Below, piece by piece: positions 18,633-20,491 of a stretch of 22,540 bases of DNA. The notes under the pieces were generated by a model, which saw only the letters and a list, made by a program, of their open reading frames with translations, was not told the origin of the DNA and did no database searches. The stretch lies in IMG/VR virus record IMGVR_UViG_2526164690_000046, one strand, 5' to 3'. A program made the position numbers and the translations under genes. Every line of letters begins with the position of its first letter. The first letter of the stretch is position 1. The stretch is from a virus (lineage: Duplodnaviria > Heunggongvirae > Uroviricota > Caudoviricetes).

Positions 18633-18661
18633 TAGTCACCGAACATCACCGGATTTATAAG
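18633..18661 (+). promoter_or_regulatory. Candidate int promoter within a conserved 27-bp motif
   Basis: TAGTCA (18633-18638), 17-bp spacer, TATAAG (18656-18661); motif GTCACCGAACATCACCGGATTTATAAG recurs upstream of alpA. Confidence 0.4.
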
Positions 18662-18678
18662 CTATCAGCCGGATTTTT

Positions 18679-18730
18679 TAGTTATACGTTTAGTTATACG
18701 GGCTGGCGTATAACTAAAGCCGTATAACTA
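18679..18730. repeat. Four copies of TAGTTATACG (two direct, two inverted) upstream of the P4-type integrase
   Basis: Direct copies at 18679-18688 and 18691-18700; inverted copies CGTATAACTA at 18707-18716 and 18721-18730. Confidence 0.8.
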
Positions 18731-18763
18731 AAACCCTGTTTTTTCGTGTGGAATCATAGACAT

Positions 18764-20005
18764 ATGGCGAGAAAAACACACCCATTAACCACAGTGCAGA
18801 TCAAAGCAGCCAGACCAGCGCAAAAGGAGTACACCCTGCAGGACGGCGGAGGGCTTTTTCTCCTGGTCAAACCGTCTGGATCAAAACTCTGGAGATTTTC
18901 CTACTACCGACCATCGGACAAAAAAAGAATATTGCTGAGTTTTGGATCGCTTGAAGATGTTTCCCTGGCTGATGCCAGAAAACGCCGTAGCGAGTACAGG
19001 ACGTTAATCAGTGCCGGAACTGACCCGCAGGACCACGAGAGGCAAAAAAGAGAGACAGAGGCCCGAAGACAAGGGAACACGTTCGAAAATGTGGCGGCGG
19101 CATGGTACCAGGTGAAAATCAGCCAGAATCTGGCCCCCAACACGATTAAAGACATCTGGCGTTCGCTGGATAAATATGTATTCCCGTTCATCGGCAACAC
19201 GCCAATAGATACCCTCACCGCCCGAAGGTTCGTTGAAGTGCTTACCCCCATCAAGGAGCGCGGCAACCTGGAAACACTCAAGCGGGTTTTACAGCGCGTT
19301 AATGAGGTAATGGATTACGCCGCCAACAGTGGGCTGATTGATGCCAATCCGGCTATGAATGTGCGTAAGGCGTTTCCCTCACCTGTAAAAAAACATATGC
19401 CAACAATCCGCCCCGAACAGCTGCCCGAGCTTATGCAGGCTTTATCAGTATCGGCAACAGAACGGCAGACCAGATTACTGATTGAATGGCAGTTACTGAC
19501 CGTAACCCGTCCCGCCGAAGCGTCATCAACGCGGTGGGATGAAATCAACCTGGACGCGAAGCAATGGACGATACCTGCCGGACGCATGAAGATGCGCAGG
19601 GATCACGTTATCCCGCTTTCCGGTCAGGCTATGGCGGTGCTGGAGGCCATGAAACCAATCAGCCACCACCGCAATTACGTTTTCCCAAGTCTGAAAGACC
19701 CACAGCAGCCGATGAACAGCCAGACAGCTAACGCAGCATTGCGGCGTATGGGATTCGCTGGCGTGCTGGTGTCTCATGGATTACGCGCCATATTCAGCAC
19801 AGCAGCGAACGAGGAAGGATTCGAGCCGGACGTAATAGAGGCGGCACTTGCCCACGTCGACACCAACGAAGTTAGACGGGCATACAACCGGAGCAACTAC
19901 ATAGAAAAACGCATCGTGCTGATGCGCTGGTGGGGCGAATTTGTCGAGGCTGCGGCGACGGGCGTAACCCTCGCCAGTGGTAAAAGGGGTATCCGAGCCG
20001 TGTAG
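18764..20005 (+). CDS. P4-type tyrosine integrase
   Basis: N-terminus MARKTHPLTTVQIKAARPAQKEYTLQDGGGLFLLVKPSGSKLWRFSY is the P4-integrase arm-binding signature; C-terminal catalytic region (..HGLRAIFST.., ..ALAHVDTNEVRRAYNRSNY..); the track ORF starts at GTG 18746. Confidence 0.9.
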   Translation: MARKTHPLTTVQIKAARPAQKEYTLQDGGGLFLLVKPSGSKLWRFSYYRPSDKKRILLSFGSLEDVSLADARKRRSEYRTLISAGTDPQDHERQKRETEARRQGNTFENVAAAWYQVKISQNLAPNTIKDIWRSLDKYVFPFIGNTPIDTLTARRFVEVLTPIKERGNLETLKRVLQRVNEVMDYAANSGLIDANPAMNVRKAFPSPVKKHMPTIRPEQLPELMQALSVSATERQTRLLIEWQLLTVTRPAEASSTRWDEINLDAKQWTIPAGRMKMRRDHVIPLSGQAMAVLEAMKPISHHRNYVFPSLKDPQQPMNSQTANAALRRMGFAGVLVSHGLRAIFSTAANEEGFEPDVIEAALAHVDTNEVRRAYNRSNYIEKRIVLMRWWGEFVEAAATGVTLASGKRGIRAV

Positions 20006-20082
20006 CTGTACAGAAAACCAGTAAAAACTACGAAAACCATGTAAAACCGTCGTATAATTGCATCAAATTTAACGACAAGGCC

Positions 20083-20334
20083 GTGAAACATGAAACCGTT
20101 AAGATGCAAAAAAATATCAGATGCAATTGCGACGGGCTGCAACTGGCCCTGATGGTTCAGCATGAATTTTGGTCAACCTACGATCCGGAGGACAGAACGA
20201 CGGCCCCATCAAAAAAACAGGTAGTAGATTTTCTGGTATCCCGTGGCGCTTCCAGAAATCTGGCGGTAAGTATTGATAAGGTCGTACGTCCGGCATCTAT
20301 GAAGATCGGAGGCAGGCCCAAAAAATGGCGGTAA
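20083..20334 (+). CDS. Small AlpA/Xis-like DNA-binding protein candidate
   Basis: 83-aa ORF (GTG start; ATG at 20104 also possible); C-terminus ..RPASMKIGGRPKKWR resembles the AlpA/excisionase wing; perfect TATAAT at 20049-20054 upstream; terminator follows. Confidence 0.45.
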   Translation: MKHETVKMQKNIRCNCDGLQLALMVQHEFWSTYDPEDRTTAPSKKQVVDFLVSRGASRNLAVSIDKVVRPASMKIGGRPKKWR

Positions 20335-20344
20335 CAATCCTGGA

Positions 20345-20368
20345 AGCGGCAGAAATGCCGCTTTTTTT
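20345..20368 (+). terminator. Rho-independent terminator
   Basis: AGCGGCA / GAAA / TGCCGCT followed by a T-run. Confidence 0.65.
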
Positions 20369-20462
20369 ATAATTCCATTTCAAATCATCAATATAAAAAA
20401 CGGTGTATACCGTTTAAAAACGGTGGGAACTGTTTTTACCCATATCCGATGATTTACCGTAT

Positions 20463-20491
20463 TTGTCACCGGAATACACCGGATTCACAAG
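20463..20491 (+). promoter_or_regulatory. Candidate alpA promoter; second copy of the 27-bp motif
   Basis: GTCACCGGAATACACCGGATTCACAAG (20465-20491); TTGTCA at 20463-20468 with 17-bp spacer to CACAAG. Confidence 0.4.

What the first reader, a model, noticed from the sequence alone, without database searches (positions are those of the whole stretch)
18633..20491. Conserved 27-bp motif upstream of both int and alpA
GTCACCGAACATCACCGGATTTATAAG (18635-18661) and GTCACCGGAATACACCGGATTCACAAG (20465-20491) share 21 of 27 positions, and each overlaps a candidate promoter. Two leaders sharing a motif suggests co-regulation of the integration module by one factor.
Basis: seen in the sequence. Interest (0 to 1): 0.5.

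Follow-up and report, generated by a model that had tools for sequence, protein, structure and literature searches.

The report
Excisionase-type binding sites in a satellite island
The shared motif is real, but it is two units of a set of eight 10-bp-spaced CACCGGA repeats that most likely bind the island's small AlpA excision protein, at the island's chromosomal junction next to int and in front of alpA; this is a familiar design in mobile elements.

Summary
The two 27-mers exist as described and match at 21 of 27 positions (0 of 300 shuffles reach this). The real unit is a heptamer, CACCGGA, repeated directly every 10 bp. Three copies lie 13 nt from the island's left recombination core. Three more lie just before the int arm repeats, and two end 16 nt before the alpA start.

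The window holds a phage-inducible chromosomal island (PICI) that normally sits at tRNA-Pro. Here it is inserted in a prophage esterase gene.

A second repeat, TTTAGTTATACG, occurs on both att arms and switches together with the Int N-terminal domain in natural swaps. It is therefore the Int arm site, and CACCGGA is not.

CCGG-type phased repeats hold the same positions in Escherichia, Pectobacterium, Erwinia and Brenneria islands. P4 and a CP4-57-like element show the same layout.

The best reading is that these are binding sites for AlpA, a Xis/TorI/Vis-like recombination directionality factor. At attL they would drive excision. At alpA they would give autoregulation, with the sign unresolved.

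This is a new member of a known kind, of modest interest. No binding was tested.

The parts
18531..18540 (+). Left junction (attL crossover) of the island. Identity with the tRNA-Pro-borne copies starts at 18538.
   Evidence: The identical island in O26:H11 matches from query position 339, which is window 18538. tRNA-Pro 3' end and core CTCTCGTGCC at attL and attR of L002. Intact target ...gagccggaGTGgtactacg... in L086.
18552..18581 (+). Cluster 1: three CACCGGA sites at 18553, 18563 and 18573, in 10-bp phase, 13 nt from the core.
   Evidence: Orthologous phased sites in all related islands.
18592..18626 (+). Intrinsic terminator supplied by the island downstream of the tRNA 3' end. It separates the two site clusters.
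   Evidence: Conserved hairpin plus T-run in every related attL arm.
18635..18673 (+). Cluster 2: CACCGAA (18637), CACCGGA (18647), a degenerate position (18657) and AGCCGGA (18667).
18677..18732 (.). Int arm-type sites: TTTAGTTATACG twice direct (18677-18688, 18689-18700) and twice inverted (18707-18718, 18721-18732).
   Evidence: D20, I21, I22. Two further direct copies lie about 61 nt from the core on the other arm. They co-vary with the Int N-terminal domain. Same layout as the annotated P4 attP arm repeats.
18764..20005 (+). int, a P4-type tyrosine integrase with an arm-DNA-binding domain.
   Evidence: Pfam PF13356, PF22022 and PF00589. NCBIfam NF007246.
20104..20334 (+). orf76, unknown function, with a GGRPKKWR tail. 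It is not part of the conserved site system.
   Evidence: No Pfam or NCBIfam match. Homologues occur only in E. coli groups A and B.
20342..20365 (+). Terminator-like hairpin after orf76. It isolates alpA as its own transcription unit.
20465..20491 (+). alpA-leader pair: CACCGGA at 20467 and 20477, ending 16 nt before the alpA ATG and abutting the Shine-Dalgarno sequence.
   Evidence: A pair is present 16-18 nt before the start codon in several unrelated leader contexts.
20450..20499 (+). Predicted leader RNA hairpin. The outer stem pairs 20450-20458 with 20491-20499 and covers the Shine-Dalgarno sequence. The two CACCGGA units sit at the apex.
20502..20708 (+). alpA, a 68-aa winged-helix protein and the candidate binder of the CACCGGA sites.
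   Evidence: PF05930 E=0.0028, below the cut-off. Model pLDDT 78; best small-protein match is 8c3t, the GIsul2 excisionase, with TM 0.87. 29% identical to P4 Vis.

Best explanation
The CACCGGA units are binding sites for AlpA, the island's recombination directionality factor. AlpA is a small winged-helix protein of the Xis/TorI/Vis kind, which binds head-to-tail as monomers on direct repeats one helical turn apart.

Six sites lie in the int-proximal att arm: three next to the crossover core and three next to the Int arm-type repeats. AlpA bound there would bend the arm so that Int held on TTTAGTTATACG can reach the core, switching the reaction to excision. Because the int transcript must start inside or beside this arm, occupancy would also modulate int expression.

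The two sites that end 16 nt before the alpA start are an autoregulatory operator. It ties AlpA level to its own synthesis. Their position, between any plausible promoter and the ribosome-binding site, favours negative feedback. Positive autoregulation, as measured in EcCICFT073, is not excluded.

Shown here: the sites, their phasing, their position in attL, their conservation, and their independence from the Int N-domain and from orf76. Inferred: that AlpA is the binder, and the direction of each effect.
For: (1) Phased direct repeats, far above chance.

(2) Placement. The island boundary is fixed by the identical island at tRNA-Pro. The sites lie only on the int-proximal arm, between the core and the arm-type repeats. 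No phased pair occurs elsewhere in the 8.8-kb island.

(3) A natural domain swap. L017 against L019/L020 has Int residues 101-end 96% identical and AlpA 96-97% identical, but the Int N-domain only 69-70% identical. The doubled repeat changes from TTAGTTATAC to TTGGGACTAC while every CCGG site stays the same. The doubled repeat is therefore the Int arm site and the CCGG sites are not.

(4) orf76 is missing from Pectobacterium, Erwinia, Brenneria, E. albertii and PKF4 islands that keep phased sites. Int and AlpA are then the only proteins identified here as shared by all of these islands.

(5) attL-derived matrices find the alpA-leader pair with 0/1000 shuffles in three E. coli lineages and 1-28/1000 in four Pectobacterium-type loci. 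In three of those four the best pair is the one 17-18 nt before the start codon, in non-homologous leaders; in L017 a different site scored best.

(6) In PKF4 and E. albertii the Int N-domain and arm repeats are like the window, but AlpA is only 60-63% identical and the attL sites are CATCGTT/AGCCGTT.

(7) The number of 10-bp units before alpA varies: three units in 7 genomes.

(8) The AlpA fold resembles a solved excisionase, BldC and Pukovnik Xis. BldC and RDFs bind direct repeats one turn apart (PMC11963761, PMC7498355).

(9) The same two-cluster phased layout occurs in P4 attP and a CP4-57-like attL.

(10) AlpA is necessary and sufficient for PICI or PICMI excision and autoregulates in EcCICFT073 (PMC6092414, PMC10803314).
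Against: No binding data exist for this AlpA, and assignment to AlpA is by elimination.

In the PKF4 and E. albertii lineage the attL matrix does not find a significant pair in the alpA leader (405 and 492 of 1000 shuffles). The allele-tracking argument therefore rests on attL alone.

Sites are degenerate across lineages (YCGKW), so specificity changes are soft.

AlpA matches Pfam PF05930 only below threshold, and Foldseek E-values are weak (0.05-0.3).

In EcCICFT073, AlpA did not affect Pint (PMC6092414).

The alpA-leader copy also sits at the apex of a predicted RNA hairpin, which could account for part of its conservation.
Confidence: 0.62

Rival explanations
1. The alpA-leader copy works mainly as RNA. 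The leader folds into a hairpin whose outer stem hides the ribosome-binding site of alpA, and the two CCGG tetramers pair to form its apical stem. The resemblance to the int-side copy is then partly incidental. This is not exclusive of DNA binding.
For: The predicted hairpin pairs 20450-20458 with 20491-20499, with an inner CCGG/CCGG stem (z -3.6, 0/300 shuffles). Across 15 distinct leaders 99.5% of cells are paired, with one compensatory AU to UA change and one G-U. Unrelated leaders of L022 and L020 also bury the Shine-Dalgarno sequence in a stem around the pair (z -3.1 and -3.4).
Against: Only one compensatory event supports the stem. The RNA stem needs only CCGG, yet both units keep the full CACCGGA and the 10-bp direct-repeat register of the attL sites. 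The hairpin is weak or insignificant in L017, L018, L021 and the P4 vis leader. It cannot explain the six attL copies.
Confidence: 0.2
2. The two 27-mers are duplicated promoters (-35 GTCA, -10 TAyAAG-like), with a regulator site in the spacer that co-regulates int and alpA transcription.
For: By eye, TAGTCA-N17-TATAAG and TTGTCA-N17-CACAAG have 17-bp spacers. AlpA-family folds resemble MerR-type regulators, which bind promoter spacers.
Against: The consensus scan finds no promoter at either place. The -10-like hexamers are not conserved (CACAAG, AATGAG, AACGAG; TATAAG, TAAGAT, TAACAG). A start 7 nt after CACAAG would remove the Shine-Dalgarno sequence from the alpA mRNA. A 10-bp unit expansion in 7 genomes makes the spacer 27 bp. 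The same sites also occur in cluster 1, far from any gene start.
Confidence: 0.08
3. The CACCGGA units are a second class of integrase sites, bound by the Int core-binding or catalytic domains or by a second arm specificity, rather than by AlpA.
For: They lie in an att arm. The Int C-terminal part is conserved (96%) between L017 and L019/L020, where the sites are also conserved. The core itself contains GCCGACC, loosely similar to the sites.
Against: The sites are absent from the other arm and independent of the Int arm-binding domain. A pair sits in front of alpA, 1.8 kb from the core, where Int has no known business. Helically phased head-to-tail triplets are the signature of RDFs rather than of Int (PMC7498355).
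Confidence: 0.07
4. A host protein that binds direct repeats at 10-11 bp spacing, such as a response regulator, recognises the sites. Alternatively, the repeats are a non-functional duplication.
For: Response regulators of the OmpR/PhoB type use such spacing (general knowledge). No island protein has been shown to bind.
Against: Site sequence differs between islands within the same host species (CCGGA, ATCGGT, CATCGTT). The architecture is kept across four genera and in P4, which argues against both a single host factor and neutrality.
Confidence: 0.03

Closest known systems
KplE1 (CPS-53) prophage: TorI RDF and IntS at attL (Panis et al. 2010, PMC2951348; PMC3509656)
   Same: The int gene is transcribed away from a tRNA-borne attL that overlaps its promoter region. 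Several cooperative RDF sites (five for TorI) and Int arm-type sites share that arm. The RDF gene is transcribed separately, so excision is switched by RDF expression.
   Different: The RDF and integrase lineages differ. A copy of the RDF sites in front of the RDF gene itself is not described in the passages read. Binding there is experimentally shown, whereas here it is inferred.
Satellite phage P4: Vis (AlpA homologue) and Int at attP and the late promoter region
   Same: The attP layout is the same in the P4 record: two arm repeats, core, about 110 bp, two direct plus one inverted arm repeat, then int. All eight TCC triplets between the core and the arm repeats fall in two 10-bp-phased clusters. 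Vis is an excisionase and a transcriptional regulator, and Int and Vis both lower int expression (cited in PMC2951348 and PMC7286903). AlpA here is 29% identical to Vis.
   Different: The site sequence differs (TCCR against CACCGGA). The vis leader has an inverted rather than direct CCGGA pair. Vis action on int has been proposed to be post-transcriptional (PMC2951348). I could not read the Vis footprint papers, which are not in the library.
Dual-purpose RDFs of P2-like phages: 186 Apl and P2 Cox (PMC7498355)
   Same: One small protein binds direct repeats 10-11 bp apart, both at att (five sites) and at a regulatory region (seven sites). Binding is cooperative and bends DNA.
   Different: Apl and Cox control the lysis-lysogeny promoters and repress them. 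Here the second site set is only two units and sits at the RDF's own gene.
EcCICFT073 AlpA (Fillol-Salom et al. 2018, PMC6092414)
   Same: It is a Gram-negative PICI with int, alpA and replication genes. AlpA is required for transfer, is sufficient for excision and replication, and activates its own promoter. Its sequence also shows 10-11-bp phased repeats (GnAACAA) before alpA, after int and near attR.
   Different: The AlpA allele, integrase, att site and motif are unrelated. No binding site was defined there, and AlpA did not change Pint.
HE-PICI 'doubled motif' (Tommasini et al. 2023, PMC10111431)
   Same: A tandem doubled motif lies on both attP arms at fixed distances (81 bp and 132 bp from the centre). 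This is comparable to TTTAGTTATACG x2, about 78 bp and about 150 bp from the core here. The island in this window is also embedded, co-oriented, in a prophage late-region gene.
   Different: That paper left open whether Int arms or AlpA bind the doubled motif. Here a natural Int N-domain swap assigns the analogous motif to Int. This integrase normally uses tRNA-Pro, and the prophage insertion is a rare secondary event.
RdfS of ICEMlSymR7A and BldC (PMC11963761)
   Same: These are winged-helix proteins that oligomerise head-to-tail on repeats one DNA turn apart. RdfS binds a 40-bp stretch next to an Int arm site and also regulates promoters. BldC is among the best structural matches of the AlpA model.
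   Different: They are distant in sequence, come from different elements, and RdfS oligomerises without DNA.

Membership tests
RDF (excisionase) binding-site array in an att arm | Direct repeats spaced about one helical turn apart. | tested here: met
   Site starts at 18553/63/73, 18637/47/(57)/67 and 20467/77. The phased pair pattern occurs 4 times on the + strand against 0.19 expected per window on both strands.
RDF (excisionase) binding-site array in an att arm | Located on one att arm only, between the crossover core and Int arm-type sites. | tested here: met
   The core is mapped with the tRNA-Pro copies. The sites are absent from the attR-side arm. Arm-type sites are identified by occurrence on both arms and by co-variation with the Int N-domain.
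RDF (excisionase) binding-site array in an att arm | The element encodes a small winged-helix RDF. | tested here: inconclusive
   The Pfam Phage_AlpA score is 17.9 bits against a cut-off of 21. The AF2 model has pLDDT 78 and matches the GIsul2 excisionase with TM 0.87, but Foldseek E is 0.07. It is 29% identical to P4 Vis.
RDF (excisionase) binding-site array in an att arm | The RDF binds the repeats and is needed for excision. | not testable with these tools
   This needs EMSA or footprinting and excision assays. Only indirect support is available, from other AlpA proteins (PMC6092414, PMC10803314, PMC5148205).
Dual-function RDF operator at a regulatory region (Apl, Cox, Vis type) | The same site type as at att recurs at a regulatory region. 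| tested here: met
   The attL-derived matrix finds the alpA-leader pair uniquely (0/1000 shuffles; 0 of 44,204 positions).
Dual-function RDF operator at a regulatory region (Apl, Cox, Vis type) | The sites overlap a promoter and change its activity. | tested here: inconclusive
   No consensus promoter was found over or near the pair. The transcription start is unknown and the effect cannot be tested here.
Integrase arm-type sites (as a reading of CACCGGA) | Present on both arms of attP, and co-varying with the Int arm-binding domain. | tested here: not met
   CACCGGA occurs on one arm only. It is unchanged when the Int N-domain is swapped. TTTAGTTATACG meets both criteria instead.
   The scan is negative. 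The hexamers are not conserved. A 10-bp expansion occurs in 7 genomes.
Gram-negative phage-inducible chromosomal island (PICI) | int, alpA, replication and packaging or capsid genes transcribed one way, about 8-15 kb, flanked by att repeats. | tested here: met
   Annotation of L001 and L002 shows int, alpA, Icd/ash, DUF4222, RepA helicase, terminase small subunit and major capsid protein. The island is about 8.8 kb between attL and attR.
Gram-negative phage-inducible chromosomal island (PICI) | Induction and packaging by a helper phage. | not testable with these tools
   No experimental data exist for this island. 53 near-identical leaders occur on IMG/VR viral contigs of 7-14 kb, which are predicted proviruses and not evidence of packaging.

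The most novel reading that the evidence does not exclude
The pair of CACCGGA units before alpA is a two-level switch. As DNA it is the AlpA operator. As RNA it forms the apex of a hairpin that hides the alpA ribosome-binding site, so AlpA synthesis needs a trigger that opens the leader. That trigger could be the still-unidentified helper-phage signal that induces Gram-negative PICIs. In this particular strain the island sits downstream of the prophage Q antiterminator. Late transcription could therefore read through the attL terminator and induce int and alpA in cis.
Probability: 0.1. Interest if true: 0.6.

Novelty: new member of a known kind. Interest (0 to 1): 0.33.

Why it matters
AlpA is the master switch of Gram-negative PICIs, yet none of the papers I read defines a DNA site for it. 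This island family is in 374 of 5,426 complete E. coli genomes, including O26 and O111 EHEC, Nissle 1917 and ATCC 25922.

A concrete, mutable operator (CACCGGA at 10-bp phase) makes three questions directly testable. Is AlpA an excisionase, a transcription factor, or both? Does it feed back on itself positively or negatively? How are its levels coupled to Int?

The natural Int N-domain swaps also answer, by analogy, a question left open for helper-embedded PICIs: the doubled motif on both arms is the Int arm site. None of this changes the known picture of RDF-controlled excision.

Tried and rejected
(1) The word-indexed protein search with AlpA returned only 19 close E. coli or Shigella relatives. 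I used a pattern scan of species genomes instead.

(2) I thought PKF4 and E. albertii carried a matching variant pair (TACCGTT..TTYCATT) before alpA. The matrix test shows it is not significant, so I dropped that claim.

(3) Promoter scans of the window and of three related leaders gave nothing over the sites. I could not place Pint or PalpA.

(4) I considered pairing between the 20398-20435 palindromes and the CACCGGA pair (I3). L004 and group B change one side without compensation, so I rejected it.

(5) Rfam has no family on the alpA leader.

(6) The P4 vis leader shows similar stems, but its folding energy is no better than shuffles (z about 0). It was not used as support.

(7) orf76 as the binder was rejected because it is absent from most lineages with the sites.

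(8) Host-factor and chance explanations were rejected on lineage-specific site sequences and cross-genus conservation.

(9) The Vis footprint papers (Calì 2004; Polo 1996; Piazzolla 2006) are not in the library. P4 is compared by sequence only.
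Full report
WHAT IS IN THE SEQUENCE

Dinucleotide-shuffled versions of the two leaders gave a best 27-mer match of 16.7 on average, never above 20, and 0 of 300 reached 21.

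The repeat is finer-grained than a 27-mer. The heptamer CACCGGA occurs 13 times in the window against 2.4 expected. Eight copies or near-copies stand in direct orientation at exact 10-bp phase, in three clusters:
- 18553, 18563, 18573
- 18637 (CACCGAA), 18647 and, two turns on, 18667 (AGCCGGA)
- 20467, 20477

The phased pair CCG[GA]A-N5-CCG[GA]A is found four times on the + strand, all in these clusters. The expectation is 0.19 per window for both strands.

CONTEXT

The window is from E. coli O111:H11 88.0502. Positions up to about 18538 are a Rac-like lambdoid prophage: recET, a Q antiterminator at 16709-17182, then a DUF1737 ORF.

From 18538 onward the DNA is 100% identical to an island that sits at tRNA-Pro, between yejM and yejO, in O26:H11 11368, Nissle 1917 and many other strains. 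The island is about 8.8 kb. It carries int, a 76-aa ORF, alpA, a short leftward operon, Icd/ash genes, a RepA helicase, a terminase small subunit and a capsid protein, which is the gene set of a Gram-negative PICI.

In O26 the core CTCTCGTGCC is repeated at both ends. Everything between 18541 and the int start at 18764 is therefore the int-proximal arm of the attachment site, not just a leader. Cluster 1 lies in the apparent 3' tail of the DUF1737 ORF, and that tail is island DNA.

TWO SITE FAMILIES

A second repeat, TTTAGTTATACG, stands twice direct and twice inverted at 18677-18732. It also stands twice direct about 61 nt from the core on the other arm.

The annotated P4 attP has exactly this layout: two arm repeats, core, about 110 bp, two direct plus one inverted arm repeat, then int.

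Related islands supply a natural experiment. Pectobacterium loci L017 and L019/L020 have Int residues 101-end 96% identical and AlpA 96-97% identical. Their Int N-terminal arm-binding domains are only 69-70% identical. The doubled repeat changes from TTAGTTATAC to TTGGGACTAC, while every CCGG-type site in attL and before alpA is unchanged. The doubled repeat is therefore the Int arm-type site, and the CACCGGA family is not.

CONSERVATION

I compared E. coli variants, E. albertii, and five Pectobacterium species, Erwinia psidii and Brenneria salicis. In these the attL arm keeps the same order:
1. core
2. two or three phased YCGKW sites
3. the terminator that follows the tRNA
4. two or three phased sites
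5. arm repeats
6. int

In most lineages two phased sites end 16-18 nt before the alpA start, in leaders that are otherwise not alignable.

Matrices built only from attL sites were used to search the alpA leaders:
- In three E. coli lineages they recover the pair with 0/1000 shuffles and no equal score anywhere else in the locus.
- In four Pectobacterium-type loci the best phased pair in the leader reaches 1-28/1000. In three of these it is the pair 17-18 nt before the start codon; in L017 a different site scored best.
- In PKF4 and E. albertii they fail (405 and 492 of 1000), and there the alpA leader is entirely different.

The number of units before alpA also varies. Seven genomes carry CACCGGAATA three times.

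P4 and a CP4-57-like element show the same two-cluster phasing with TCC-type units. In P4 all eight TCC triplets between the core and the arm repeats are at 9, 19, 29, 37 and 72, 82, 92, 102. The design is therefore ancestral to P4-type integration modules.

WHO BINDS

A host factor is unlikely, because the site sequence differs among islands within E. coli: CACCGGA, ATCGGT and CATCGTT.

orf76 is found only in two E. coli lineages. Int's arm domain is excluded above. AlpA remains.

The evidence on AlpA itself is as follows:
- It is a 68-aa protein with a sub-threshold Phage_AlpA match.
- It is 29% identical to P4 Vis.
- Its predicted winged-helix fold (pLDDT 78) best matches MerR-type domains, the GIsul2 excisionase (TM 0.87), BldC and Pukovnik Xis. 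Foldseek E-values are weak, as expected for so small a protein.

RDFs and BldC bind head-to-tail on direct repeats one turn apart. Several RDFs (Apl, Cox, Vis, RdfS) also regulate promoters (PMC7498355, PMC11963761). TorI has five sites in the KplE1 attL that overlaps PintS (PMC2951348, PMC3509656).

AlpA proteins are necessary and sufficient for excision in EcCICFT073, PICMI115 and CP4So. The EcCICFT073 protein activates its own promoter (PMC6092414, PMC10803314, PMC5148205).

In PKF4 and E. albertii the Int N-domain and arm repeats resemble the window, but AlpA is 60-63% identical and the attL sites carry T where the window has G. This is suggestive co-variation, limited to attL.

MECHANISM

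I commit to the following, at 0.62.

AlpA filaments on cluster 1 and cluster 2 bend the int-proximal arm, so that Int bound at the arm repeats bridges to the core, giving excision. Because any int promoter must lie between the terminator (18592-18626) and 18764, the same occupancy should damp or modulate int transcription, as in KplE1.

The two sites before alpA provide autoregulation. They abut the Shine-Dalgarno sequence and lie downstream of any plausible promoter. That favours negative feedback, although positive feedback is what was measured in a different PICI.

No phased pair occurs elsewhere in the island. alpA is bracketed by terminator-like hairpins. In this family AlpA's direct targets therefore appear to be attL and itself.

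WHAT IS NOT SUPPORTED

The promoter overlap fails on four counts:
- The scan is negative.
- The hexamers are not conserved.
- A start after CACAAG would cut off the ribosome-binding site.
- The 10-bp expansion would make the spacer 27 bp.

A SECOND LAYER AT alpA

The leader RNA is predicted to fold so that 20450-20458 pairs with 20491-20499, which includes the Shine-Dalgarno sequence. The two CCGG tetramers pair at the apex (z -3.6).

Across 15 distinct leaders, collected from fetched loci and 53 IMG/VR contigs, 99.5% of cells pair, with one compensatory change and one G-U. L022 and L020 have an unrelated stem with the same logic.

Support is thin, resting on one compensatory event. It is absent in several lineages and in P4. 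I keep this as a non-exclusive rival for the alpA copy.

VERDICT

Its meaning is a recombination-directionality site array with an autoregulatory outpost. This is a new member of a well-known kind, and binding is not yet demonstrated.

Noticed in passing
window 18353-18540, with L001 25105-25130 and L086 1630-1650: The PICI is not at its usual tRNA-Pro site. It is inserted, co-oriented, in a prophage SASA/NanS-p-type esterase gene between the Q antiterminator and the lysis genes. The intact target reads gagccggaGTGgtactacg, shares only GTG with attP, and lost 2 nt on insertion. Only 2 of 5,426 genomes (both O111:H11) have this arrangement. Q-modified late transcription could read through the attL terminator into int and alpA, as proposed for helper-embedded PICIs.
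   Followed up: partly
window 20450-20499: The predicted alpA leader hairpin sequesters the Shine-Dalgarno sequence, with the two CACCGGA units at its apex. One compensatory pair (AU/UA) separates the two E. coli lineages. Analogous stems occur in L022 and L020.
   Followed up: partly
window 20398-20415 and 20418-20435: Two 18-bp palindromes, AAACGGT-N4-ACCGTTT and AAACGGT-N4-ACTGTTT, lie 20 bp apart, 65-105 nt upstream of alpA. They are conserved in E. coli groups A and B and absent in other lineages. They could be an operator for a dimeric regulator of alpA, possibly the unknown helper signal or an island repressor. The half-site ACCGTTT resembles the YCGKW sites.
   Followed up: no
window 21088-21304: An unannotated 57-aa leftward gene (21261-21088) gives a weak, sub-threshold YlcI/YnfO-family match. 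A 62-aa ORF (21045-20857) follows it. The gene is preceded by two copies of ACATGGTAATTACC (palindrome GGTAATTACC) in the divergent region facing the ash/icd operon. This is probably a repressor and its operator. RefSeq instead annotates an 'Icd-like' pseudogene on the opposite strand (window 20723-21238).
   Followed up: partly
window 21521-21706: Rfam isrK (21521-21597, 66 bits) and C4 antisense RNA (21619-21706, 78 bits) lie inside the island. This points to P4/P1-type RNA immunity elements, in a stretch that RefSeq annotates as ash or Icd pseudogenes.
   Followed up: no
window 17952-18205: Two prophage sRNA genes lie just upstream of the interrupted esterase gene: STnc100 (17952-18142, + strand, 135 bits) and AgvB anti-GcvB (18144-18205, - strand, 76 bits).
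   Followed up: no
window 20104-20334: orf76 lies between int and alpA, has no family match and ends in an AT-hook-like GGRPKKWR. It occupies the position of the 'int-contiguous or overlapping gene' that is needed for excision in Vibrio PICMIs (PMC10803314). It is present only in two E. coli lineages of this island family.
   Followed up: partly
L031 (E. coli CFT073) 9683-9933, 11161-11528, 20655-21201: The experimentally studied EcCICFT073 has its own 10-11-bp phased repeat, GnAACAA or GACACAA. It stands just after the int stop, 35-85 nt before alpA, and inverted near attR. These are candidate AlpA or Int sites that have not been defined in the papers I read.
   Followed up: no
L006 3640-3672, and 6 other genomes: A 10-bp unit expansion (CACCGGAATA x3) occurs before alpA in O91:H21 and other strains. 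It is a natural variant for testing how site number affects AlpA feedback.
   Followed up: partly
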